A stretch of 64,000 nucleotides of DNA from NCBI RefSeq assembly GCF_963921235.1, contig NC_086097.1, forward strand, positions 103,852,001-103,916,000, read 5' to 3'. Positions 24,384-56,624 of the stretch are shown here, in pieces. Each line of letters begins with the position of its first letter. Position 1 is the first letter of the stretch. This stretch comes from Mobula hypostoma (Eukaryota). The notes below the pieces were generated by a model. That model was not told the origin of the DNA, ran no database searches, and saw only the letters and a list, made by a program, of their open reading frames with translations. A program made the position numbers and the translations under genes.

Positions 24384-27300
24384 CAGCGGTCCCCAACCAC
24401 CAGGCCAAGGACCGGTATCGGGCCGCAATGCATGTGCTACCGGGCTGTGAGGAAATGATATGAGTCAGCTGCACCTTTCCTCATTCCCTGTCACGCACTG
24501 TTGAACTTGAACATAGGGTTGCCAACTGTCCCGTATTTGCTGGGACATCCCATATATTAGGCTAAATTGGTTTGTCCCGTATTTCCCCCGCTACGGTAGA
24601 GCGTTCCTATGAAGCCTTTCGTAGCGAAATGGCGTGAAGCGAAAAAGCAATTACCATTAATTTATATGGGAAAAATTTTTGAGCGTTCCCAGACCCAAAA
24701 AATAACCTAACAAATCATACCAAATAACACATAAAACCGAAAATAAATAACACTAACATTAACAAGGGTCGAGGTCCCTTCTCCCCGAGCAGTGTTTAAA
24801 ACAAAAGACTTTTTGTACCCGATTTCTTCACTCCCTTCTGAGAAGAAGGGAGTGAAGAAATCGGGTACAAAAAGTCTTTTTTTTTTAAACACTGCTCGGG
24901 GAGAAGGGTCTGCACTGCGCAGGCGCGTGATGTAGCACACTAAGGTTTAAAAAGAGGAATTTTCAATGGTTCTTGTTTCAGTCGAAGCAAGCAGCTGAGA
25001 AGAAGGGAGCGAAGAAATCGGGTACAAAAAGTCTTTTTTTTAAAACGCTGCTCAGGGAGAAGGGTCTGCACTGCGCAGGCACGTGACATAGCGTGCCAAG
25101 GTTTAAAAACAGACAACCATATACAGTGGGCAGCGGAGTGAGAGGGAGCAGAGTGGGATGGCTTTGGCTCAACAGGCTTCGGCGAGAACAGGCAGAGGCC
25201 AGGGTAGGTTCCGGTAAGTTTTTTGTCCAGATTGTTTAGAGTAGAGAGAATGCCAGGTAGGATGTTGGAATGCTCCTCTTGCAGGATGTGGGAAGTCAGG
25301 GAGCCCTCCGGTGTCCCTGACAATGACATCTGCAAGAAGTACATCCAGCTGCAGCTCCTAACAAACTGTGTTAGGGAACTGGAGCAGGAGCGGGATGACC
25401 TCCGGATCATTCGGGAGAATGAGGAGTTTATAGATAGTAGCTACAGGGAGGTAGTTACGCTAAAGGAGCAGAGCACAGGAAATTGGGTCACTGTCAGGTG
25501 AGGGAAGAGGAAATGGCAGGCAAAGCAGGGTTCCCCCGTGGCCATTCCCCTCAACAACAAGTATACCACATTGGATACTGTTGGGGAAGATGACTTACCT
25601 GGGACAAGCTGCAGCAGCCAGATCTCTGGCACTGTGTCTGGTTCTGCAGTGCAGAAGGGAGGGTAGAAAAAGAGGAGAGCGGTAGTGATAGGGGACTCAA
25701 TAGTTAGAGGTACAGATAGGAGGCTCTGTGGTCGTGAGAGAATCCAGGATGGTTTGTTGCCTCCCAGGCGCCAGGATCAAGAATGTCTCTGATCGATTGC
25801 ATGACATTCTGAAGTAGGAGGGTGATCAGCCAGATGTCGTGGTACACACCGGTAGCAAGGAAGTGTGAGGAGGTCCTGGAGAGTGAGTATAGAGAGAGTG
25901 GTAGAAATTTGAAAAGCAGGACCTTGAGGGTGGTAATCTCAGGATTGCTACCTGTGCTACGTGCCAGTGAGGCTAAAAATAGGATGCTCTGGAGGATGAA
26001 CAAGTGGCTGAGGAACTGGTGTAGGGGGCAGGGTTTCAGATTTCAGGATCATTGGGACCTCTTCTGGGGCAGGTGGGTCCTGTACAAGAGAGACGGGTTA
26101 CACTTGAACTACAAGGGGACCAATATCCTTTCAGGGAGGTTTGTTAGTGCTGTTAGGGAGGCTTTAATCTAGATTTGCAGGGGGATGGGAACCAGAGTGC
26201 CAGAGCTGACAGTGAGGCTGGGGTGAAAATAAATGATGTTAAAAGTTCAAGCAAAGCCACAAATAGAAAGACTGTGAGTGGTGGTAAAAAATCTTCTGAG
26301 GCGTATATATTTCAATGCTAGGAGTATTGCGGGGAAGGCAGACGAGTTGAGGGCGTGGATTGACATGTGGAATTATGACGTTATAGCAATTAGTGAAACT
26401 TGGCTAGAGGAGGGGCAGGACTGGCAGCTTAATATTCCAGGGTTCCGATGTTTCAGATGTGATGGAGGCAGAGGAATGGAAGGTGGGGTGGTAGCATTAC
26501 TTGTTGGGGAAAACGTTACAGCAGTGCTCAGGCAGGACAGATTAGAGGGCTTGTCTACTGAGTCCTTATGGGTGGAGCTGAGAAACAGGAAAGGTATGGC
26601 CACATTAGTGGGGTTGTATTATAGACCACTCAGTAGTCAGCGAAAATTGGAGGAGCAAATCGGCAGAAAGATAGCAGGCAACTGCAGGAAAGAGAGTTGT
26701 GGTGGTAGGGAATTTTAATTTTCCACATATTGATTGGGACTCCCATACTGTTAGGGGTCTAGTTGGGTTAGAGTTTGTAAAATGTGTTCAGGAAAGCTTT
26801 CTAAATCAATATATAGAGGTACCAACTAGAGGGGATGCAATAGTAGATCTCCTATTAGAAAACAAGTTAGGACAAGTGACAGAAGTGTGTGTAGGGGAGC
26901 ACTTTGGTTCCAGTGATCATAACACCATTAGTTTCAACTTGATCATGGATAAAGATATATCTGGTCCTAGGGCTGAGGTTCTAAACTGGAAGGCGGCCAA
27001 ATTTGAAGAAATGAGAAAGGATCTAAAAAGCGTGGATTGGGACAGGTTGTTTTCTGGCAAGGACGTGAACGGTAAGTGGGAAGCCTTCAAAGGAGAAATT
27101 TTGGGAGTGCAGAGCTTGTATGTTCCTGTCAAAATTAAAGGCAAAGTGAATAGGAATAAGGAATCCCTTGGTTCTCAAGGGATATTGCAACTCTGATAAA
27201 GAAGAAGAGAGAGTTGTATGACATGTATAGGAAACGGCGTAAATAAGGTGCTTGAATATAAAAAATGCAAAAAAATACTTAAGGAAATCAGGAGGGCTAA

Positions 27301-29515
27301 AAGACATGAAGTTGCCTTGGCAGTCAAAGTGAAGGATAATTCAAAGAGCTTTTATAGGTATATTAAGAGTAAAAGGATTGTAAGGGATAAAATTGGTCCT
27401 CTTGAAGATTAGAGTGGTCGGCTATGTGCAGAACCAAAAGAAATGGGGGAGATCTTAAATGGGTTTTTTTGCCTCTATACTAATGAAACTGGCATGAAGT
27501 CTATGGAATTAAGGAAAACAAGTAGTGAGATCATGGAAACAGTACAGACTGAAAAGGAGGAGGTGCTTGCTAGCTTGAGGCAAATTACAGTGGATAAATC
27601 CCCAGGACCTGACAGGGTATTCACTTGGACCTTGAAGGAGACTAGTGTTGAAATTGCAGGGGCCCTGGCAGATATATTTAAAATGTCAGTGTCTACGGGT
27701 GAGGTGCCGGAGGATTGGAGAGTGGCTCATGTTTCTCCGTTGTTTAAAAAAGGATCGAAAAGTAATCCAGGAAATTATAGGCCGGTAAGTTTGACATTGC
27801 TAGTGGGTAAGTTATTGGAGGGAGTACTGAGACAGAATCTACAAGCATTTGGATAGTCAGGGACTTATTAGGGAGAGTCAATATGGCTTTGTGCATGGTA
27901 GGTCATGTTTGACCAATCTATTGGAGTTTTTCGAGGAGGTTACCAGGAAAGTGGATGAAGGGAAGGCAGTGGATGTTGTCTACATGGACTTCAGTAAGGC
28001 CTTTGACAAGATCCCGCATGGGAGGTTAGTTAGGAAAATTCAGTTGCTAGGTATACAATGGAGAGGTGGTAAATTGGATTAGATTTTGGCTCAATGGAAG
28101 AAGCCAAAGAGTGGTAGTAGAGGATTGCTTCTCAGAGTGGAGGCCTGTGACTAGTGGTGTGCTACAGGGATCAGTGCTGGATCCACTGTTATTTGTCATC
28201 TATATTAATGATCTGGATGATAATGTGGTAAATTGGATCAGCAAATTTGCTGATGCTACAAAGATTGGAGGTGTAGTGGACAATGAGGAAGGTTTTCAAA
28301 GCTTGCAGAGGGATTTGGACCAGCCGGAAAAATGGCAGATGGAGTTTAATACAGACAAATGTGAGGTATTGCACTTTGGAAGGACAAACCAAGGTAGAAC
28401 ATACAGGGTAAATGCTAAGGCACTGAGGAGTGCAGTAGAACAGAGGGATCTGGGAATACAGATACAAAATTCCCTAAAAGTGGTGTCACAGGTAGATAGG
28501 GTTGTAAAGAGAGCTTTTGGTACATTGGCCTTTATAAATCAAAGTACTGAGTATAAGGGCTTGAATGTTATGATGAGGTTGTATAAGGCATTGGTGAGGT
28601 TTTGGTTACCAAATTACAAGGAGGATATTAATAAGGTTGAAAGAGTGCAGAGAAGGTTTACAAGGATGTTGCCGGGACTTGAGAAACTCAGTTACAGAGA
28701 AAGGTTGAATAGGTTAGGACTTTATTCCCTGGAGCGTAGAAGAATGAGGGGAGATTTGATAGAGGTATATAAAATTATGATGGGTATAGATAGAGTGAAT
28801 GCAAGCAGGCTTTTTCTACTGAGGCAAGGAGAGAAAAAAAAGAGGACATGGGTTAAGGGGGAAGGGGGAAAAGTTTAAAGGAAACATTAGGGGATGCTTC
28901 TTCACACAGAGTGGTGGGAGCGTAGAATGAGCTGCCAGATGAGGTGGCAAGTGCGGGTTCTTTTTTAACAGTTAAGAATAACTTGGACAGATACATGGAT
29001 GGGAGGTGTATGGAGGGATATGGTCCGTGTGCAGATCAGTGGGACTAAGCAGAAAATGGTTTGGCATAGCCAAGAAGGGCCAAAAGGCCTGTTTCTGTTC
29101 TGTAGTTTTTCTATGGTTTCTATATAATAAAAGCAGGAATGATATGATAAATACACAGCCTATATAAAGTAGAAATAATGTATGTACAGTATAGTCAGGA
29201 ATATGAAGGCAAAATCGATTTTAGAGGGGAAAAAATCGGCATATATGCGCATGCGCACATCACATACGCACACAGGTGCCCGTGCAAGGCTTCATGGTCA
29301 TGGTAGTCTTTCCTGGGGTAAAGTGTCCCGGGATTTGACTGCTACTTTTGTCCCTTATTTGGGAGTGAGAAAGTTGGCAACCCTAACTGTAAAAGACATG
29401 TTGAGGTGAGTTTAACCCTACTTGAACACCCCCCCCACCCACCCAGTTGGCCGGTCCGCAAGAATATTGTCAATATTAGACCAGTCCATGGTGCAAAAAA
29501 GGTTGGGGACCCCCT
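24384..29515. mobile_element. hAT-type non-autonomous element (composite), interrupted by a full-length CR1
   Basis: TIRs CAGCGGTCCCCAACC / GGTTGGGGACCCCCT; 8-bp TSD ATCTATGG (24376-24383) / ACCTATGG (29516-29523). Confidence 0.8.
24761..29122 (+). mobile_element. Full-length decayed CR1 LINE (ORF1 zinc-finger/coiled-coil plus SGNH esterase ~25250-26172; ORF2 APE+RT ~26300-28880)
   Basis: ORF1 CSSCRMWE, VIGDSIVRG, DGLHLN. ORF2 YFNARSI, ISETWL, SDHN, KSPGPD, DFSKAFD, QGSVLDP. TTCTATGG tail. Confidence 0.95.
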
Positions 29516-32374: not shown

Positions 32375-33918
32375 TAGGTGTCCCCCGCTTTTCAAACGTT
32401 CGCTTTACGAAAGACCTACATTAGTACCCTATTTTCACTTTCAGAAGGTGTATTCACTGTTACAAAAAAAAATTCAGCGCGCGATAAAAGGCAGTGCGCC
32501 CTGAGCAGCCGCTCTCCCCCGGATTCTCGCCGGCATTGCTTAAACACAAGCCTGTGAGCAGCCGTTTGCAATATGAGTTCTATGGTATCGGAAAAGCCTG
32601 AAAGAGCTCGTAAGGGTGTTACACTTACGGTAAAACTAGACATAATTAAGCGTTTTGATCGTGGTGAACGAAGTAAGGACAACGTGAGTTTGGCTTGTGG
32701 AAGTTGACGAAGATGATGTTGAAGAGGTTATGGCCTCCCATCACCAAGAACTGACAGATGAAGAGCTGATGCAATTGGAAGTAAAAAGGATAACAATCAA
32801 AACCGAATGAGTAATGATAAAGTACGACTTTAATTTTAAAAGGGTACGTCGGTTTAGGGGATATTTGCAGGATGGTTTGAATCCTTATTAAAGAACTGTG
32901 TGATAGAAAAATACGCGAGGCTCAGCAGTCAAGCAAGCCTTCCACATCAGCCACAGCAGACGAAGAACCTCAACCTTCGACATTGAGGCAGGCAGTCATT
33001 GGAGATGAGCTGCCTGCTCTAATGGAAACAGGCGACGAGATGACACCCCAGTGTCCCACCGCCCCAACCCCCAGGCCACAGACAGATACCAATTCGCAGA
33101 GAATGCAAAGGTAGCCAGGAGGCACACAGCACATCTTTAAAAAACCGAAATAAACATGCTAATTAATTAGGTGCCGCCGACACGTAATTGTCGGCCCGGA
33201 TCAGTGACAACGAAATCGGAAATCGGCACTGATCTGGGCCGACAATTACGGGCGACACCTAATTAATTAGCATGTTTGTTTCGGCTTTTTTCTTAAAGAT
33301 GTGCTGCGTACCTCCCGGCTACCGCTGGACCCCTGCATTCTTCGCGGCAATGTATCGCTCAGCGGCCTGGACGGTGGGGGGAGGGGGGGTGCCACTGCAC
33401 CAGCCAAACTCCGACGACTCAGTCTAACACACCATTATCAGTGTGCTTGGCGCTGTCCCGATTCCCATAAGTGACACTACACTGTACATACATTATTTCT
33501 ACTTTATATCAGCTGTGTATTTTTACGTGTTATTTGGTATGATTTGGTAGCTTCATAGTTTAAAGGTTACTGGAGAGCGCTTGCGCCGTGTTTTTGCCAA
33601 CAGCGCTTGCGTGAGATTTTCTGCCGACGGCGCTTGCGTGAGATTTTTGCTCCAGAGAACAGTTCAGTAATGATTGTGGAAAAGTATTTCTACTTTATAG
33701 GCTGTGTATTTATCATATCATTCCTGCTTTTACTATATGTTACTGTTATTTTAGGTTTTATGTGTTATTTGGCATGATTTGGTAGGTTATTTTTGGGTCT
33801 GCGAATGCTCATAAAATTTTCCCATAAATAAATGGTAATTGCTTCTTCACTTTACGACATTTCGGCTTACGAACCGTTTCATAGGAACGCTCTACCTTCG
33901 GATGGCAGGGGAAACCTG
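32375..33918 (+). mobile_element. Tigger/pogo-family non-autonomous transposon
   Basis: TA flanks; TIRs (C/T)AGGTGTCCCCCGC / GCAGGGGAAACCTG; CENP-B-like HTH remnant RKGVTLTVKLDIIKRFDRGE; acidic C-terminal remnant DDVEEVMASHHQELTDEELMQLE. Confidence 0.85.
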
Positions 33919-39250: not shown

Positions 39251-40369
39251 AAGTTTTTATTGAAGCAAATTTAAACTATAGTCATTCAATTCCTAACAGT
39301 TATTACTTTGTCTATGGCTGAGGGAAAGTGTGTAACATACATGCTGACACATTGAAGTATTTCCTCCAACAATAGTTTACTGCAATACAACATGTGGAAC
39401 ACTGTCAATGTTTAGTCAATAGGCCAATAAATTATAGCTTTAGCCACCTTTGCCAGAAATTCATCTTCTCCTCTGCATTGTTTGGACAGATGCAGGCCAT
39501 AGTTTTAAGATTTAATCACTCCTAATTATTGTCCTGCTTATTTTTTTAAAGCGTGCACTGTTCGATGGAAAAGCGGCTAAATTACATTACTTCTCTATTT
39601 AGCACATCAGGAGATATTAATTAGGGCAGATATTGTATCACTTAATCACTTCAAAAGCACAACATTAATTAGATGTTCATTGTTTACCTTCAAGCTTATT
39701 ATATAAACAAGCAATTGGGAAGTAACCATGCTGCAGGCAATATGAAATGGCTGTCCCCAGTTAAATGCATTTGGAATTGTTTTCTGCACTGAATTATAAA
39801 TCCAGCCAACTCCCATGAGCTAACCGCTGCAATAGTACAGACCAGATATGTAGATACAACCAAATTTGGAAATACAATTTTAAGTGAAAAAAAAGTTATT
39901 GCAAACAATTTCTGATCTTGACCTCCATTCCATTCCCACCCAAAACAAAACTATACAGTGAAGGTGGGGGGGGGGGGGGATCTTAAAAAATGTTCTTGGA
40001 ACACAAAATCAGATGACAAAAATTGGATTAAAGATCTGCAGAGAGACAAGACTCTTGTAAATAAGACATGGGGTGAATTGTGTACCAGTCTGAAAGGAAG
40101 ACAAATCAGTCACCAGAATCCCTGCTGTGCAACAGTGTGGAATACATCTTCATTCTGAGGTGTCGTCATCAAGTTGTGTCCCCCACTGCACTATCACAGA
40201 CACCCTTCCAACCTCATCAACAAAACACACTCACAGCCTCATTTTATTCAGTAAACTGCTCACAAATTCACCACCATTCTCAATTCTGTACCAAATATTT
40301 TTGACCTCATCTACTCTCACCCTCCCCTTCAAACCCCTAACACATTCTCCCCTCCCCATCTCTCACTGA

Positions 40370-41735
40370 GCCACCAGTCCGCACTCCTCACACCCGTCCC
40401 TACTCTGTCCTCCTCCCTCCAACCGCACCCGTCCCCACTCTGTCCCCCTCCCTCCAACCGCACCCATCCCCACTGTCCCCCTCCCTCCAACCGCACCCAT
40501 CACCACTCCATCCCCCTCCCTCCAACCGCACCCATCACCACTCCATCCCCCTCCCTCCAACCGCACCCATCACCACTCCATCCCCCTCCCTCCAACCGCA
40601 CCCATCCCCCTCCCTCCAACCGCACCCATCCCCACTCCGTCCCACTCCCTCCAACCGCACCCATCACCACTCCGTCCAACCGCACCCGTCCCCACTCCCT
40701 CCAACCGCACCCGTCCCCACTCCCTCCAAGCGCACCCATCACCACTCCCTCCCCCTCCCTCCAACCGCACCTGTCCCCTCTCCATCCCACTCCCTCCAAC
40801 CGCACCCATCCCCACTCCGTCCCCCTCCCTCCAAACGTACCCATCCCCACTCCGTCCCACTCCCTCCAACCGCACCCGTCCCCACTCCCTCCAACCGCAC
40901 CCGTCCCCACTCCCTCCAACCGCACCCGTCCCCACTCCCTCCAACCGCACCCATCCCCACTCCGTCCCACTCCCTCCAACCGCACCCATCCCCACTCCCT
41001 CCAACCGCACCCGTCCCCACTCCCTCCAACCGCACCCGTCCCCACTCCCTCCAACCGCACCCGTCCCCACTCCCTCCAACCGCACCCATCCCCACTCCCT
41101 CCAACCGCACCCATCCCCCTCCCTCCAACCGCACCCATCACCACTCCATCCCCCTCCCTCCAACCGCACCCATCCCCACTCCGTCCCACTCCCTCCAACC
41201 GCACCCGTCCCCACTCCCTCCAACCGCACCCGTCCCCACTCCCTCCAACCGCACCCATCCCCACTCCCTCCAACCGCACCCATCCCCCTCCCTCCAACCG
41301 CACCCATCACCACTCCATCCCCCTCCCTCCAACCGCACCCATCCCCACTCCGTCCCACTCCCTCCAACCGCACCCGTCCCCACTCCCTCCAACCGCACCC
41401 GTCCCCACTCCCTCCAAGCGCACCCATCACCACTCCCTCCCCCTCCCTCCAACCGCACCTGTCCCCTCTCCATCCCACTCCCTCCAACCGCACCCATCCC
41501 CACTCCGTCCCCCTCCCTCCAAACGTACCCATCCCCACTCCGTCCCACTCCCTCCAACCGCACCCGTCCCCCTCCCTCCAAACGTACCCATCCCCACTCC
41601 GTCCCACTCCCTCCAACCGCACCCGTCCCCACTCCGTCCCACTCCCTCCAACCGCACCCGTCCCCCTCCCTCCAACCGCACCCGTCCCCCTCCCTCCAAC
41701 CGCACCCATCACCACTCCGTCCCCCTTCCTCCAAC
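40370..41735. repeat. C-rich minisatellite, core CCCCACTCCCTCCAACCGCACCC(A/G)T (25 bp, with 35-bp variants)
   Basis: Directly visible tandem array. Confidence 0.97.
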
Positions 41736-41753
41736 TATTCCACTAACCCTTGA

Positions 41754-41828
41754 TCATAGAAACATAGAAAACCTACAGTACAATACAGGCCCTTTGGCCC
41801 ACAATGCTGTGCCGAACATGTCCTTACA
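41754..41828 (-). mobile_element. Very short CR1 3' tail
   Basis: Near-identical to 7735-7808 and 52627-52698. Confidence 0.8.
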
Positions 41829-42129
41829 GCTTAAAGCTTGCATGAAAACAATTCACCACTGCCTTTCCACCATCTTGATTCTGCCTCCCCATCCATCTCT
41901 ACCTTATCCCTCCTATCCCCTTCCATTATCCTCCTCTCCTCCATCCACTCTTCCCACTTTCACCAATCTCTTTGCCCCCATTGCTTCATTACCTTATCCC
42001 TTTCTCCTCCCTTGTCCCCACCCCCTCATCCACTCCCTTCTCATCTCCCCACACACCCTCCCCCTCCTTACAACTCACTTTCACCCCTCCCAACACCTCC
42101 CTTATCTCCTCACACCACCTTAACCCATC

Positions 42130-42880
42130 CTTCACTTCCCCACTCCACCACACCTCATCCTTCCCTTCCCCACTCTATTCCACCCCACCTCACCCAACCC
42201 CTCCCTTCCCCACTCCATTCCACCCCACCCCTCCCCTCCCCACTCCATTCCACCCCACCCCTCCCCTCCCCACTCCATTCCATTCCACCCCACCCAACCC
42301 CTCCCCACTCCATTCCACCCCACCTCACCTCTCCCCTCCCCACTCCATTCCACCCCACCTCACCTCTCCCCTCCCCACTCCATTCCACCCCACCTCACCC
42401 AACCCCTCCCTTCCCCACTCCATTCCACCCCACCCCTCCCCTCCCCACTCCATTCCACCCCACCCAAACCCTCCCTTCCCCATTCCATTCCACCCCACCC
42501 AACCCCTCCCCACTCCATTCCACCCCACCTCACCTCTCCCCTCCCCACTCCATTCCACCCCACCTCACCTCTCCCCTCCCCACTCCATTCCACCCCACCT
42601 CACCCAACCCCTCCCTTCCCCTCCCCACTCCATTCCACCCCACCTCACCCAACCCCTCCCTTCCCTTCCCCACTCCATTCCACCCCACCTCACCCCTCCC
42701 CTCCCTTCCCCACTCCATTCCACCCCACCCAACCCCTCCTTTCCCTTCCCCACTCCATTCCACCCCACCTCACCCCTCCCCTCCCTTCCCCACTCCATTC
42801 CACCCCACCTCACCCCTCCCCTCCCTTCCCCACTCCATTCCACCCCACCTCACCCAACCCCTCACTTCTCTTCCCTTCCC
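42130..42880. repeat. C-rich minisatellite built from pentamers (CCCCA-CTCCA-TTCCA-CCCCA-CCTCA)
   Basis: Directly visible tandem array. Confidence 0.95.
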
Positions 42881-43099
42881 CAATGCATCCACCCCATAGC
42901 TTCCTCCCTTCATTCCTCCACTTCACCTTCATTTTCCCACCCCAGCCCTGCAATCATCTCCCCACACCCAACTCTCCTTCACTTCCTTACAACTCCACTT
43001 CAACCCCTCCCCAACTCACTTTTACCCCTCCTCTCACACCCACCCCTTCATCCCTCCTCACTCCACCCTTCACTTCCATACTGCACCCCACCTCACACC

Positions 43100-44415
43100 A
43101 ACTCTCACTGCAGCCTGCCCCTCACCCCTAACACCTCCCTTCCCTCCCCCACTCCACCTCCCTCTCAACCCTCCCCTCCCTTCCCCACTCACCCTCCTTC
43201 CCCACTCCACCTCCCTCTCAACCCTCCCCCACTCACCCCTCCCTTCCCCACTCACCCCTCCCTTCCCCACTCACCCCTCCCTTCCCCACTCCACCTCCCT
43301 CTCAACCCTCCCCTCTCACCCCTCCCCTCTCACCCCTCCCCCTCCCTTCCCTTCCCCACTCACCCCTCCCTTCCCCTCCCCTCTCACCCCTCCCCCTCCC
43401 CTCCCTTCCTCACTCACCCCTCCCTTCCCCACTCCACCTCCCTCTCAACCCTCCCCCACTCACCCCTCCCTTCCCTCCCTTCCCCACTCCACCTCCCTCT
43501 CAACCCTTCCCTCCCTTCCCCACTCACCCCTCCCTTCCCCTCTCAACCCTCCCCTCCCTTCCCCACTCACCCCTCCCTTCCCCACTCTGCTCTGCCTTCC
43601 CTTCCCCACTCATCCCTCATCTCTCACCCCTCCCTTTACCCTCCCCTCTCCACCTCCCTCTCACCCCTCCCTTCCCCACCTCCCTCTCACCCCTCCCTTC
43701 CCCACCTCCCTCTCACCCCTCCCTTCCCCACCTCCCTCTCACCCCTCCCTTCCCCTCCTCACTCCACCCTCTCCTCCCTTCCCCACTCACTCCTCCCCTC
43801 CCCACACCCCTCCCCTCCCTTCCCCACTCACCCCCCCTCCCCTCCCCACTCACCCCTCCCTCCCCTCCCCACTCACCCCTCCCCTCCCCTCCCCACTCAC
43901 CCCTCCCCTCCCCTCCCCACTCACCCCTCCCCACTCACCCCTCCCCTCCCCTCCCCACTCACCCCTCCCCACTCACCCCTCCCCTCCCCTCCCCACTCAC
44001 CCCTCCCCTTCCCCACTCACCCCTCCCTTCCCCACTCACCCCTCCCCTCCCCTCCCCACTCACCCCTCCCCTCCCCTCCCCACTCACCCCTCCCCTCCCC
44101 TCCCCACTCACCCCTCCCCTCCCCACTCCACCCTCCCCTCCCTTCCCCACTCCACCCTCCCCTCCCTTCCCCACTCCACCCTCCCTTCCCCACTCCACCT
44201 CCCTTCCCCACTCCACCCTCCCCTCCCCACTCCACCTCTCACCCCTCCCTTCCCCACTCCACCCTCCCCTCCCTTCCCCACTCCACCCTCCCCTCCCTTC
44301 CCCACTCCACCCTCCCCTCCCTTCCCCACTCAACCCTCCCCTCCCCCCTCTCACCCCTCCCCACCTCCCTCTCACCCCTCTCCTGTCCACCCTCCCATCC
44401 CTTCCCCACTCCATA
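43100..44415. repeat. C-rich array of CCCCACTCACCCCTCCC(T/C)T-type units abutting the exon 1 donor
   Basis: Directly visible; almost no G on the plus strand. Confidence 0.95.
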
Positions 44416-44425
44416 GCCCCCTCAC

Positions 44426-44472
44426 CTCTTGCTCAGCGGTCGGACTCTCACTGCCACTTTCACATTCGCCAT
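44426..44472 (-). CDS. STARD9: Coding exon 1 of kinesin-3 family StAR-related lipid transfer protein 9 (STARD9/KIF16A)
   Basis: Minus strand reads ACC-ATG-GCG (good Kozak context), MANVKVAVRVRPLSK-AG|GTGAG donor, inside a CpG island. It matches the kinesin motor N-terminal motif VxVAVRVRP and the STARD9 start MANV(Q/K)VAVRVRPLSKRE. Confidence 0.93.
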
Positions 44473-44780
44473 GGTTGAGTAACAGGAAGATATTTTAATC
44501 CGCGGATTTTACTGACATCCTCCAAAAGCGCAACCGGCAATGCCGCCGAGCAGAGACCGACAACCGTGCGGGGTCCGCTCATCAGACCGCCGGCCCCATC
44601 CCACCGGCCGTTCCCTCTACTCGGTCCGCATCGCGTCGAGGCGGGGCACGAGGTGTCAGTCAGAGCGCGGACACGGCGAGGGGCGGGGCGGGGCTGGGGG
44701 ATGTCAATCAGCTCCGTCCAGTGCTGCCTGTCAATCACGGGGAACTCAGCGCCTGACGGCAGCAATTCTGTTTCCCCTCT
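44430..44780 (-). promoter_or_regulatory. CpG-island promoter/5'UTR of STARD9
   Basis: High CpG density against a CpG-poor background. GC boxes GGGGCGGGGCGGGGC at 44680-44694. TGTCA(A/G)TCA motifs at 44654-44662, 44702-44710 and 44728-44737. Confidence 0.8.
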
Positions 44781-51731: not shown

Positions 51732-53967
51732 CTAGAAACAACACATTATCACAAGAACATGTTGTGTATTTAATATCTCAGTATTTGAGTCATCTTGTAA
51801 ATATATTGTTCAATTTATCATTCTTGTTCGTTCGGGGTTATGTGAATTGCATAAGTCATCACACTACACGTGATACGTGTGTACCTCACTAAAGTAAACT
51901 TGAAGTTAGACCCACATTCCTGGACTCAGGTGTCTTTCTTGATGATGAGGTATTTTTAAACCAAACCTGATATGGCTATTGATCTATTGAAGTGCAGCAA
52001 GATGTGTGAACTAAAACAAATGCAGTAAGGAACATTTAGTAAAAACGCAGACTAGCACATACAAACTGTTGAGTATAAAACAAGGCAGTAAAGGGAGGAA
52101 TTCATGAGTTCATAAAGAATGAGTAATAAAAATCATTAAAAATGCAGAAATAACTGGCTTTGTTGGCAAAATTGATATGTTTGACTACATAAAAGATAAC
52201 TGAACTATGCATAATTCAACAATATTTTGAATCAAATGATATAGCTAATGAGAAGCAAATACCGATTTTGCTGAGTACTTTGGGTTTAAAGGCATTCAGT
52301 TTGCTTCAAAGTTTAACTGCTCTAACCAAACCAGCAGAAATGAGCTTTGTCAACATAATGAAGGAACATTTAGAACCAAAGCCAAGTTGCACTTTCGAAA
52401 AGAGCACGAATCTGCATGCTGTTGCTGAAAAAACTGATAATGATAACAGTGACACAAGACTGTGTAGCCTTAAGAATTAACATGTGAAAATTAACAATAG
52501 ACAAGCTTACACCAGAAGTGAACGGCAAATTAATTAAAATGGAATTAGACACTGGTTCAACTGTTTCAGTCATTCCACAAAATGCATTTGAGAGACGTTT
52601 CAAAGATACTAAACTAAAGCCTGCAAATAGAAACATAGGAAACTTGCGGCATAATACAGGCCCTTCGGCCCGCAAAGTTGTGCCGAACATGTCCCTACCT
52701 CAGGACATGTCCAACTAAGCACTTACAGTGGAGAAAGGATAACTCCTGTGGAACTGACATTTGTGACATTTGTCACAGTGAAAAACAACAACCAATGAGA
52801 CACATTGAGCTTGTACGTGGTAAAAACAGGAGGGCCAGCATTGTGGGAATGTGATTGGCTGAGACAACTACAACTTGATTGGAGATCCATCCACCATTTG
52901 CATGCCACATCCCCTGTAATGAAGTCATATGAAAGCAAACTAAGAAAGATACTGAATGATGGCACAGTTCAAGGGTAGAATTGGAAAACTCAGATATATC
53001 AAGGGTAAAATAGTGTTAAAGGTAAATGCTGCACTCAAGTTTTGCAAAGCCTGTCAGTTCCTTATAGAATCTGTGATAAAGTAGCCAGTGAGCTGGATCG
53101 CATGGAGGCTGAAGGAATTCTTTCCAAGGTTGAGTGGAGCCAATGAGCAACTCCAGTGGTCCCAGTAGCCAAAAAGAATGGGTCTGTCAGGATCTGTGGT
53201 GATTTTAAGGTCACTATCAACCCAGTACCAAAGGTAGATCAAAACCCTCTACCCAAGATGGAGGATATCTTTGCAAACCTTTCTGGAAAACACTTCAGCA
53301 AAGACAGAGGTGGAAGAAGAGTCCAAGGTGATGCTGGCGAGGTGGTAATGGGGGACAAGGAATTGGCAAACAAACTGAATAAGTATTTTGCATTAGTCTT
53401 CACTGTGGAAGTCACTAGCAGTATGGTGGAAGTTGCAATTGTCAGGGTGTGAAGTGTGTGAAGTTACCATTACTAGAGAGAAGGTTCTTGAGAAACTGTA
53501 AGGTCTGAAGGTAGATAAGACACCTGGACCAAATGGTGTACACCCCAGGGTTCTCAAAGAGTTGGCTGAAGAGACTGTGGAGAGATTCTTTCAAGAATCA
53601 TTGGATTCTGGAATGGTTCTGGAAGATTCAAGATCCTGACAGAGCCATCCTTCTTGGCTACTGGGGCCACAGGCATTGCCCATGAGCTCCACTCAACCTT
53701 GGAAAGAATTCCTTCGGCCTCCATGTGATCTAGCTCACTGGCTATTTTATCACGGATGGTACAGTATAAGAAACTGGACAGGCTCTGCAAAACTTGGGTG
53801 TGGCATTTACATTCCTCAAGGGAAAATCTTGCCTGACAAATCTGTAGGAATTCTTTGAAGAAATAACAAGCAGAATAGGCAAAGGAGAATCAGTGGATGT
53901 TGTGTACTTGGGTTTTCAGAAGACCTTTTGACAAGGTGCCATACATGAGGCTGCTAAACAAGCTATG

Positions 53968-55894
53968 TGTCACAACCATGGATTCGGCAGAGCAGTAGAT
54001 ACGGCAATTGCACTTGTGAATATGCATGTGTCAGCTAATTATTATTTCATTGTGATAGTACTTAACTCCATACTTGTCGCCGTAGTGTTGAGACTTGGAC
54101 ACAGCACAGCAACGCTTCACTGCCTGTTTGCATTCGGCCCTCCCTGAGAGATTGGACTGTCAAGTCAACTGACTCTGAAGACTGGCAGTAATCATTTAAT
54201 GCTTAGTTGCTCTTTTCAGCCACAGTGTAAGCTTTGTTTTTCCATCTGACAGCTTTAGTTAGTGGCCCCGTTTGGCTTAGTGTTTATTGTTTGCTTTCCC
54301 CTTTAACATGGTTCGCATTAAAGTCTGTGAACTATCGACCTGCTTCAGTGTATCTCACTCCGCACTTGGGCCATATCTGAACCGGGTAACAGCAAGTCTC
54401 GAACAACAAAGATAGACCCAGCAGAGAGAGAGCAGCTGACCTTGGCCGTGAGATTCATTGGTCAGGTAGGAGACAAGCTACAGGCAATGGAATCTGTTCT
54501 CAGTGAAGTTACGGAGGCAATGAGGCAGATAACCCCGTGCTGCCAAGCCCAGTCTCACTTGGAGGTCCCTAGCTGCAACTGTTCAACAGCTCACCGCAGA
54601 TAATCGGACTCAGGTGATTTTCGCACTCACGGCTGCCGTCCACGAACTTACTGTGAACAGCCAGCATCAGCTGACAGCCATTAACATTCTCGCCAACGCA
54701 ATTCTGCAGCCTCAAGCCGCCTCAGTCCCACTCCCAGCATCTCGCAGGTCCTCCTTTTCTGCTGCCTGACAATCTCTGCTACTAATGCTCCTGCGCCTGG
54801 ACCAGAGCTGATTCCCACATTCGGATCCCCACAGACACCCGCATCCGTACAAGAACCGACTATTCCACCACCAGACAGATATTCTGGTGATCCCGATGGC
54901 TGCAGGAATTTTATTACCCAATGCGAGGTGACTTTCCAAGCCCAGCCTGGTTGTTTTGGTGATGATGCGCGAAAACTGGCATACATGATCAATCTTCTTG
55001 ATGGACCTCCGCTCGGCCTGTTCAATGCTTTATGGGAGCAAAGACACCTCGCAGCCCAGTCGTTCCGACATTTCATGGCAGAGTTAAGAAGGGTTTTTGA
55101 TCTTTCAGTACGGGGTCAGGAGGCTGCCCACCGACTCTTGGATCTGCGTCAAGGCAGAGGAACGGTGAGAGCCTATGCAGTTAAATTCAGTACCCTTGCA
55201 GTAGGAACAGGTCGGAATGGGAGATCGCTCATCACCGCCTTCCAGCATGGACTGAACGCAGGGGTTCGGCATGAGATCGCTGTCCAGGATGAGCAGGATA
55301 GTCTGGATGACCTGATTAATCTGGCTATTCGAGTTGACAATCGGGTGACTGAGTGGCGCAGGGAAAGAATGTTTCAAACTTCCTAATCACCTGATCACCG
55401 TCTTTCCTCGCCCTCTCCCCCTCCCTCACCACCCAGTACCCAGCTCACGGAAGAGCTTATGCAAGTGGGGTGCATGCACCTGTCTCAGGAGGAATGAGAG
55501 CGGCGCTGGAGAACAGGTTCCTGCCTCGATTTTGGTGATCCAGGACACTTCCGTGCGGCATGTTCCAAGCATGCAGTAAAAGAGAATACCCGTCAGCAGG
55601 GAGGGGGAAAACAAAGCCTACACTGCAGCTGAAAAGAACAACTAAACGAACCAAACAATTAAACGAATATCGCCAGTCTTCAGAGACAGTTGACTCAACA
55701 GTCCAATTTTTTAGCCAAGGTCGAATGCAAACGGGCAGCAAAGCGTTGCTGTTCTCTGTCCAAGTCTCGACAAGCATTATGTTGACAAGTATGGAGTTAA
55801 ATACTATCACAATGAAATAATAATTAGCTGACACATGCATATTCACAAGCGCAGTCGCCATATCTACTATGCTGTCGAATCCGTGGTTGTGATA
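53968..55894 (+). mobile_element. Gag-only Gypsy (Sushi/PEG10-like gag) derivative with an inverted partial LTR as its right end
   Basis: LTR TGTCAC..GTAACA (53968-54391); gag PPPDRYSGDPDGCRNFITQC..LAYMINLL..LRQG..Y..F; inverted LTR copy ~55600-55894; TSD CTATG. Confidence 0.88.
54846..55386 (+). pseudogene. Retrotransposon gag capsid region (open segment; N-terminus and zinc knuckle disrupted)
   Basis: Retrotrans_gag/DUF4939-like motifs; degenerate CCHC (CLDFGDPGHFRAAC) at ~55521-55563 lies after a stop. Confidence 0.8.
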
Positions 55895-56624
55895 CTATGA
55901 GCCCAATGTATTACAGGAAAGATTCTAGCACGGATGAAGCAGTGGCTGACTGGCAGGAGGCAAAGAGTGGGAATAAAGGGAGCTTTTTCCAGTCGGCTGC
56001 TGGTGACTAGTGGTGTTGCACAGGGGTCTATGTCAGGACTGATTCTTTTTATGTTATACGTCAATGATTTAGATAATGGAATTGATGGCTTTGTTGCAAA
56101 GTTTGCAGATGGTATAAAGAAAGGTGGAGGGGCAGGCAGTTTGTGAGGAAGTAGAGAGGCTATAGAAGGACTTGAACAGATTAGAAGAATGAGCAAAGAA
56201 ATGGCAGATGAAATATCGTGTTGGGAAGTGTCTGTTCATGCACTTTGGTGGAATAAATGAAAGGGTTGACTATTTTCTAAATGGAGAGAAAATACAAAAA
56301 AACTGAAGTGGAAAGGGACTTGGGAATCCTTGTGTACGATTCCCTAAAGATTAATTTGAAGGATGTGTCTGCGGGGAGGAAGGCAAATGCAATGTTAGTA
56401 TTCATTTCAAGAAGACTAGAATATAAAAGCAAGGATGTAATGTTAAGACTTTATAAAGCACTGGTGAGGCTTCACTTGGAATATTGTGAGCAGTTTTGGG
56501 CCCCTTATCATAGAAAGGATGAGCTGAAACTGGAGAGGGTGCAAAGGAGATTCATGAAAATGATTCCAGGATTGAATGGCTTGTCATATGAAGAGTGTTT
56601 GATGGCTCTGGCCCTGTATTATAT

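What the first reader, a model, noticed from the sequence alone, without database searches (positions are those of the whole stretch)
53963..55899. Gag-only LTR retroelement with INVERTED terminal LTR copies and a clean 5-bp TSD
Seen: a complete LTR (53968-54391, TG..CA) is followed by a Sushi/PEG10-type gag. Right after the gag zinc knuckle, where pol should begin, the sequence switches to the reverse complement of the first ~280 bp of the same LTR (~55600-55894, roughly 80-85% identical by eye). Both outer ends are therefore the U3 end (TGTCACAACC / GGTTGTGATA). CTATG is duplicated on both sides and the host CR1 reads through. Established: Gypsy elements have direct LTRs, while DIRS elements with inverted repeats use a tyrosine recombinase and leave no such TSD. 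Inference: either a non-autonomous family with a U3-U3 fold-back cDNA that integrase still accepts, or a one-off template switch during reverse transcription or repair. A read-through RNA would form a long dsRNA panhandle around gag.
Basis: partly seen in the sequence, partly recalled or inferred. Interest (0 to 1): 0.8.

Follow-up and report, generated by a model that had tools for sequence, protein, structure and literature searches.

The report
Retrotransposon misprint with two front ends
This dead 1.9-kb insertion in a ray-like genome carries the front end of its jumping gene's terminal repeat at both termini, between a clean 5-base target duplication; it is likely a one-off copying error that the element's integrase still pasted in, not a new mobile family, and it shows how such elements could gain the inverted ends of DNA transposons in one step.

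Summary
The 1,927-bp insert (53968-55894) lies in a CR1 LINE between CTATG duplications. It consists of a left LTR, a self-priming-type primer site, a decayed Tf1/sushi-like gag, and then, 10 nt past the gag end, an inverted copy of LTR nt 1-276 (236/275 identical). The family reading is not supported. In contigs of three related organisms the parent family is multi-copy, and 30-75 contigs per run continue normally on each side of 55606, but 0 of 32 listed longest pieces (1,859 laid) bridge the junction. So the junction also lacks read confirmation; the diverged arms and the TSD argue against misassembly. The arms differ (14%) about as much as unrelated copies do (13%) and share no derived letters (0/6), so the inversion likely dates from insertion. 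Best reading (0.6): a reverse-transcription template switch joined the gag end, inside a hairpin loop, to plus-strand LTR DNA, giving two U3 ends that integrase accepted. The element is predicted to be unable to retrotranspose. The scan already noted U3-U3 by-products elsewhere in this genome and in other genomes. Paper searches found only a passing mention (a guppy ERV).

The parts
53810..53962 (+). Host CR1 LINE RT fragment, left of the insertion
   Evidence: Matches other CR1 copies in the window; frame continuity; empty-site read-through by CR1 contigs (table 7)
53963..53967 (+). Left target-site duplication CTATG
   Evidence: Sequence
53968..54391 (+). Left LTR, TG...CA, 424 bp; U3 up to about 54085 (inferred), ATTAAA at 54317
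   Evidence: Termini in sequence; ATTAAA; the end is inferred from CA plus the adjacent primer site and a fall in contig depth after 54382
54086..54097 (+). Putative self-primer (inferred 5' end of the RNA)
   Evidence: 12 bp with one bulge to 54393-54405, in both MFE and centroid structures; 31 of 2000 LTR shuffles score as well
54393..54405 (+). Primer-binding-site position, complementary to the element's own LTR (Tf1/sushi type)
54412..55596 (+). Decayed Ty3/Gypsy gag of Tf1/sushi-PEG10 type: no start codon, two frameshifts near 54533-54769, stops at 55384 and 55495, degenerate CCHC knuckle at 55522-55563
   Evidence: Pfam, PDB PEG10, frames, 53% identity to P0007, whose C-terminal ARQ end matches 55591-55596
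55588..55596 (+). 5' arm of the gag-end hairpin; in ordinary copies the complementary arm follows about 5 nt after 55606, here it is lost
   Evidence: The majority loose-end line at 55606 in all four runs contains the reverse complement of this stretch (table 7, read by eye)
55598..55611 (+). Junction gag-end / inverted LTR at 55606, inside a 14-nt purine run; overlap 1 nt as called, at most about 4 nt
   Evidence: Gag-side contigs stop and LTR-side contigs start at 55606 in 4 of 4 runs; purine run
55606..55894 (-). Inverted copy of LTR nt 1-276 (all of the inferred U3 plus about 158 nt of R), with a copy-specific 10-nt insertion at about 55648-55657
   Evidence: insertion absent from the family majority and from the left arm
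55895..55899 (+). Right target-site duplication CTATG
   Evidence: Sequence
55900..56620 (+). Host CR1 LINE RT fragment, right of the insertion
   Evidence: RVT_1 weak hit, E 0.013; matches other CR1 copies

Best explanation
This is a single dead insertion from a multi-copy Gypsy family with a Tf1/sushi-like gag, whose DNA copy was likely misjoined by a template switch during reverse transcription, so that it had a U3 end on both sides, and was then likely integrated whole by the family's integrase. Inferred steps: (1) plus-strand synthesis ran from U3 through R, U5, the primer site and gag, and stopped 10 nt past the gag end, in the loop of the gag-end hairpin, a purine run. (2) The 3' end paired over 1-4 nt with plus-sense LTR DNA at nt 276, either a free plus-strand strong-stop DNA or the strand's own 5' end, and copied it back to its 5' end, which is exactly the U3 start. 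The mirror route, in which an aborted strong-stop DNA jumps onto the RNA loop, gives the same product and cannot be told apart. (3) Both ends now carried CA-3', integrase made the 5-bp staggered cut in a CR1, and host repair resolved the branched middle. Shown directly: the anatomy, the TSD, the breakpoint and the independent decay of the arms. The product would be a dead end for retrotransposition.
For: An exact U3 start at both ends plus a 5-bp TSD points to one integrase event. The breakpoint is sharp at 55606 in 4 of 4 runs and falls in the loop of the gag-end hairpin, next to the gag end seen in relatives. Neither side of the junction is an LTR end, so the junction is not an integrase product. 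Arm divergence of 14.2% is close to the 13.1% (261/1986 letters) between this copy and 32 other pieces. The left arm shares the right arm's private letter at 0 of 6 alignable sites and has the family's majority letter at 5 of 6, so the duplication is about as old as the insertion. Dead-end plus-strand strong-stop DNA accumulates in Ty3 particles (PMC5371799, section 6 read). HIV integrase uses like-end pairs in vitro and still makes 5-bp duplications (PMC8742673, passages). Template-switch chimeras are integrated with TSDs (PMC1950507, passages).
Against: No long homology guides the switch: the junction site pairs with the gag end at only -7.2 kcal/mol, against -13.4 for the best LTR site near 54136. 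A 1-4 nt overlap fits end joining equally well. No intermediate was observed, and the strong-stop and like-end evidence comes from Ty3 and HIV, not from this family; in the HIV assay U5/U5 pairs were preferred to U3/U3. No contig spanning the junction was seen. A host-type inverted duplication lies 150 bp to the left, so the locus is prone to rearrangement.
Confidence: 0.6

Rival explanations
1. Two-donor integration: one intasome captured the U3 ends of two separate DNA copies from the same particle and inserted them in concert. The two free inner ends were trimmed and joined by host end joining, keeping 1,639 bp of one copy and 289 bp of the other.
For: Gives the same ends and TSD. Like-end pairs integrate in vitro with 5-bp duplications (PMC8742673). 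The overlap is only 1-4 nt and no extended pairing exists.
Against: It does not explain why the break sits in the gag-end hairpin loop. It predicts U5-U5 products too; the earlier scan notes seen (unchecked) mostly describe two left ends.
Confidence: 0.18
2. Post-insertion host rearrangement: a normal element inserted first, and a replication or repair template switch later replaced pol and the 3' LTR by an inverted copy of the 5' LTR start, returning at the old 3' end through the 3-nt ACA match shared by both LTR ends.
For: A similar local inverted copy (53631-53813 against 53019-53195, 84%) sits in the same CR1. The LTR ends are short imperfect inverted repeats. Recombination was the guess offered for an inverted LTR in a guppy ERV (PMC5210030, passages).
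Against: The switch would have to stop exactly at LTR nt 1 and return exactly at the TSD, with no flank copied. The arms share no derived letters (0 of 6) and are as diverged as unrelated copies, so it would have had to happen right after insertion.
Confidence: 0.08
3. A non-autonomous family with this fixed U3-U3 structure that spread to several loci, through a fold-back cDNA or as a TIR-bounded unit moved by Gypsy integrase.
For: TIR-like arms of 276-289 bp with TGTCA termini resemble Ginger ends (PMC2836005). The parent family is multi-copy. Only 32 of 1,859 laid pieces and 24 of 155 loose-end rows were shown, so a few-copy or very young family with short junction contigs could be hidden. 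The window's own genome could not be searched.
Against: 0 of 32 longest pieces in 4 runs (3 organisms) pass 55608. A junction-bearing contig needs only a few more letters to outrank the 62-nt pieces that were listed. Meanwhile 30-41 gag-side and 56-75 LTR-side contigs per run continue normally. The anatomy has no 3' direct R and no terminal PPT for strand transfer. No second copy lies in the 64-kb window.
Confidence: 0.07
4. Assembly or library artefact (fold-back chimera).
For: No contig of four public runs was seen to span the junction, and the copy-specific 10-nt insertion was covered by only one contig, in run X5.
Against: A fold-back artefact would give identical arms; these differ at 14% of sites with three gaps. 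The TSD and the CR1 frame are intact on both sides. The runs need not be the source species, and a filter removes contigs.
Confidence: 0.03
5. A DIRS-type (inverted-repeat, tyrosine recombinase) retroelement, or a Ginger-type DNA transposon that captured a gag.
For: Inverted, non-identical terminal repeats with a gag are DIRS features (PMC7192593). A TGTNR start and long TIRs are Ginger features.
Against: The gag's relatives carry Gypsy protease, RT, integrase and chromodomain. There is no internal complementary region (scores 14-19 against a null mean of 18) and no recombinase or transposase. In family contigs the arm runs on into ordinary LTR sequence, so it is part of an LTR, not a TIR.
Confidence: 0.01

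Closest known systems
Tf1/sushi group of Ty3/Gypsy chromoviruses (parent lineage; bioRxiv 2022.12.06.519325 passages; PMC4600332 passages)
   Same: PEG10-like gag whose relatives carry Tf2-type SH3 and chromodomains; TG...CA LTR; primer site complementary to the element's own LTR; 5-bp TSD.
   Different: No pol, no PPT before a 3' LTR, and no direct 3' LTR; the right end is an inverted partial LTR.
Complex LTR insertions made by template switching (Sabot and Schulman 2007, PMC1950507, passages; bioRxiv 452573, passages)
   Same: A chimeric cDNA formed before integration and inserted in one event with flanking TSDs.
   Different: Those have three LTRs; the word 'inverted' occurs 0 times in either text. 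Here the switch changes strand, and both ends are U3.
Guppy foamy-like ERV PrERV-1 with an inverted 5' LTR (PMC5210030, two passages)
   Same: An LTR element in a fish genome with one LTR inverted.
   Different: A retrovirus with the 5' LTR inverted, mentioned in passing and tentatively put down to recombination. No TSD or junction analysis appears in the passages seen.
Ginger1 and Ginger2/Tdd DNA transposons (Bao et al. 2010, PMC2836005, passages and Discussion)
   Same: TGTNR termini, inverted ends of similar length (Ginger1 TIRs 40-270 bp), Gypsy-type integrase chemistry; the paper suggests that Ginger1 TIRs came from two oppositely oriented LTRs.
   Different: No transposase here, a 5-bp rather than the usual 4-bp TSD, and no sign of spread. 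The paper invokes two neighbouring insertions, whereas this insert shows a one-event route.
Autointegration inversion circles (PMC7197481, passages)
   Same: Aberrant cDNAs with inverted parts form inside particles.
   Different: Those are circles without free LTR ends, and their junctions are LTR ends; here the junction is internal on both sides.
DIRS-1 retrotransposons (PMC7192593, passages)
   Same: Inverted, non-identical terminal repeats and a gag.
   Different: No tyrosine recombinase, no internal complementary region, a Gypsy gag, and an integrase-type TSD.

Membership tests
Ty3/Gypsy Tf1/sushi lineage (as parent) | Gypsy-type gag related to sushi/PEG10 | tested here: met
   PF03732 E 6e-10; PEG10 the only PDB match; 4 of 10 scanned relatives carry RT or RNase H domains or integrase and 3 of 10 a chromodomain (RT/RH: P0033, P0070, P0121; protease: P0009, P0011, P0015)
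Ty3/Gypsy Tf1/sushi lineage (as parent) | Primer site complementary to the element's own 5' LTR (self-priming) | tested here: met
   12 bp with one bulge; 31 of 2000 shuffles reach the score. The overall leader fold is not better than shuffles (z 0.08), and priming itself is untested.
Ty3/Gypsy Tf1/sushi lineage (as parent) | TG...CA ends and a 5-bp TSD | tested here: met
   the right end has one transition in the terminal dinucleotide
Ty3/Gypsy Tf1/sushi lineage (as parent) | RT/integrase phylogeny and chromodomain of this family | not testable with these tools
   pol is absent from this copy; no genome is held; no full-length relative was fetched
Canonical (transposable) LTR retrotransposon | Two direct LTRs with a PPT before the 3' LTR | tested here: not met
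   54244-54391 occurs once in the window; the second LTR copy is partial and inverted
Non-autonomous family with a fixed U3-U3 junction | The same junction at several loci | tested here: not met
   0 of 32 listed pieces (1,859 laid) bridge it in 4 runs; a few-copy family in the source genome is not excluded
DIRS | Tyrosine recombinase | tested here: not met
   The only ORF of 130 aa or more with a family match inside the element is gag
DIRS | Internal complementary region repeating the outer ends | tested here: not met
   Scores 14-19 against a shuffle mean of 18
Ginger1/Ginger2 | Integrase-like transposase between TIRs | tested here: not met
   None encoded
Ginger1/Ginger2 | TGTNR termini and TIRs of about 40-270 bp | tested here: met
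   TGTCA at the left end; arms 276 and 289 bp, at the upper edge; TGTNR is shared with Gypsy
Ginger1/Ginger2 | 4-bp TSD (5 bp in Tdd-4/5) and dispersed copies with the same ends | tested here: not met
   5-bp TSD; no further copy seen

The most novel reading that the evidence does not exclude
The insert belongs to a small family in the source genome that moved as an inverted-end unit on Gypsy integrase supplied in trans: a caught-in-the-act intermediate between a Gypsy retrotransposon and a Ginger-like DNA transposon, with convergent U3 promoters making gag double-stranded RNA. A weaker version is more likely (about 0.6): U3-U3 inserts are a recurrent by-product class whose breakpoints map the pause sites of reverse transcription.
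Probability: 0.06. Interest if true: 0.85.

Novelty: new variant of a known kind. Interest (0 to 1): 0.36.

Why it matters
[quoted passage not shown] An insert with two U3 ends and one TSD shows that inverted, integrase-compatible ends can likely arise in one event in a vertebrate germ line; a copy that kept integrase instead of gag would have Ginger anatomy. The breakpoint also preserves a likely reverse-transcription pause site in a self-priming lineage. As a single decayed gag-only copy, of a sort this scan has already noted several times, its own weight is modest.

Tried and rejected
No whole genome is held, so the decisive genome BLAST was not possible. Gag relatives with flanking DNA: 0 loci in viral contigs and 0 in metagenome contigs. 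An exact LTR pattern found 0 matches in each collection. One search was swamped by CR1 contigs (24 of 6,367 loose-end rows shown), so it gave no view of the termini or of other junctions. The absence of the locus from runs X1, X3 and X9 proves nothing, because contigs are filtered and the species may differ. Homology-guided switching was tested and not supported. Autointegration was rejected because neither side of the junction is an LTR end. Two nested or adjacent insertions were rejected because there is a single TSD at the outer ends. Rfam gave 0 matches at gathering score in 53900-55960; ARAGORN found 0 tRNAs in the window. Earlier findings by sequence, by relatives and near this place: none. 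Paper searches for inverted-LTR Gypsy inserts: 0 papers; 3, all DIRS; the phrase 'LTRs in inverted' in 0 of 15 listed; 4, none on point by listing; one read; 2: a vector paper seen as a listing only, and the guppy ERV. Subscription journals are not in the library, and no supplements were read. No dating in years was attempted, for want of a calibrated rate.
Full report
Observation. The window holds the structure as described. The insert runs from 53968 to 55894 and is flanked by CTATG at 53963-53967 and 55895-55899. Window 53968-54243 aligns with the reverse complement of 55606-55894 at 236 of 275 columns, with 31 transitions, 8 transversions, K2P 0.162 and three gaps. Both outer ends are therefore the start of the LTR. 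The rest of the LTR (54244-54391) occurs only once in the window. The host CR1 keeps its reading frame across one copy of the 5-mer, and CR1 contigs from other loci run through the empty site into sequence that matches the left flank (table 7; 28 of 30 letters by eye). A 5-nt match at both ends has a chance of about 0.001.

Parent element. The internal part is a decayed gag (PF03732, E 6e-10). Its only PDB match is PEG10. Fragments of close relatives at 53-79% identity are annotated inside Mobula proteins, which points to a ray host. Of ten relatives scanned, three carry RT or RNase H domains, three an aspartyl protease and three a chromodomain. This places the lineage among Tf1/sushi chromoviruses by likeness of gag, not by RT phylogeny. 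The primer-site position (54393-54405) pairs with 54086-54097 of the LTR over 12 bp; 31 of 2000 shuffles do as well. This is the self-priming arrangement described for Tf1/sushi elements (passages of PMC4600332, and bioRxiv 2022.12.06.519325). It puts the inferred RNA start near 54086, so the right arm holds all of U3 and about 158 nt of R, and stops before the ATTAAA at 54317.

Family or accident. No genome is held, so I used contigs of public runs. The family is multi-copy in all four organisms laid, with 16-128 contigs per listed site inside the element. laid 1,859 records of four runs (three organisms) on 55545-55664. Of the 32 longest pieces listed, 31 end at 55606 and one at 55608; none bridges the junction. 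At 55606, 41, 32, 30 and 35 contigs run on from gag into ordinary downstream sequence, and 61, 56, 63 and 75 run on from the arm into ordinary LTR. A diverged copy with this junction would likely give a piece longer than the 62-nt ones listed, so a sizeable family is unlikely. The limits are real: 1,827 pieces and 131 loose-end rows were not shown, a filter drops contigs, and the runs may be other species. The same result means that the junction itself has no read support; one contig in run X5 covers the copy-specific 10-nt insertion but is not listed as bridging. Misassembly is still unlikely, because a fold-back artefact would have identical arms.

Timing. This copy differs from 32 other pieces by 13.1% (261 of 1,986 letters; these are the longest pieces, so they lean to diverged copies), and the arms differ by 14.2%. 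Seven of the 40 rows shown, table 3 (770 in all) fall in the right arm. At six alignable sites the left arm never has the right arm's letter, and at five it has the majority letter. If half of the right arm's changes predated a late duplication, 0 of 5 would have a chance of 0.03. The inversion is therefore about as old as the insertion.

Junction. The closest gag relatives end in ARQ, which matches 55591-55596, so the break lies 10 nt past the gag end. In all four runs the ordinary continuation contains the reverse complement of 55588-55596 (by eye). Normal copies therefore have a hairpin here, and the break lies in its purine-rich loop. The overlap between the two sides is 1 nt as called and at most about 4. 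No longer pairing guides the join: -7.2 kcal/mol at the junction site against -13.4 at the best LTR site.

Mechanism. A precise U3 start on the right needs a template that begins exactly there. Plus-strand strong-stop DNA does, and it accumulates as a dead-end product in Ty3 particles (PMC5371799, section 6). I infer that the plus strand stalled at the gag end, jumped onto plus-sense LTR DNA and copied it to its 5' end, or that the mirror jump happened. This left two CA-3' U3 ends. Integrase can use like ends in vitro with a 5-bp duplication (PMC8742673, where U5/U5 was preferred), and template-switch chimeras do integrate with TSDs (PMC1950507). I give this 0.6. Two-donor integration followed by end joining gives the same product (0.18) but does not explain the break site. 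A host template switch (0.08) has a local precedent, an inverted Gypsy RT piece at 53631-53813, but would need two exact end points and early timing. From established LTR replication, an RNA of this element could not make the first strand transfer, since it has no 3' direct R; an RNA from the right arm has no primer site. The insert would be a dead end. A read-through RNA could form a long duplex (longest perfect run 48 bp), but no RNA evidence was obtained.

Known or new. It is not DIRS (no recombinase, no internal complementary region) and not Ginger (no transposase), although its ends look like Ginger ends and the Ginger paper proposes opposed LTRs as the source of TIRs. Searches found no paper that describes U3-U3 Gypsy integrants; the nearest is a passing mention of a guppy ERV with an inverted LTR (PMC5210030). 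This scan has noted such by-products before, in this genome (e1-9930421, e1-8157700, e1-9913754) and in others; those notes are unchecked and are not counted as support. Verdict: real, most likely a one-off, a new variant of a known kind; interest 0.36.

Noticed in passing
window 53019-53195 and 53631-53813: A piece of an unrelated Gypsy RT (ATPVVPVAKK motif region) at about 52700-53310 is repeated in inverted orientation (84% over 183 columns) inside the neighbouring CR1, where it appears to replace part of the CR1. It looks like a local templated inversion, 150 bp from the element; no LTR or TSD was seen.
   Followed up: partly
window 54086-54097 and 54393-54405: Self-priming-type primer site whose partner lies about 230 nt upstream of the poly(A) signal, at the inferred RNA start as in Tf1. 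Earlier notes in this genome describe another clade whose partner is the poly(A)-signal region.
   Followed up: partly
window 55588-55606 and run contigs: Ordinary copies of the family have a hairpin around the gag end, a candidate signal for gag-pol recoding (inference).
   Followed up: no
window 54314-54382 and 55763-55831: Contig depth in these two LTR stretches is several times that of the rest of the LTR in all four runs, suggesting motifs shared with other, more abundant LTR families.
   Followed up: no
proteins P0001, P0003, P0005: Mobula gene models named ADGRE2-like, DMBT1-like and neurotrypsin-like contain stretches 53-79% identical to this gag: either annotation errors or exonised gag.
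   Followed up: no
window 24595-25112 and 33476-33896, 29122-29195: Short nested direct and inverted repeats (24776-24839 against 25001-25064, 92%), possibly fold-back Penelope-type stubs like those in earlier notes.
   Followed up: no
window 40255-44500: A long low-complexity C-rich tandem region.
   Followed up: no
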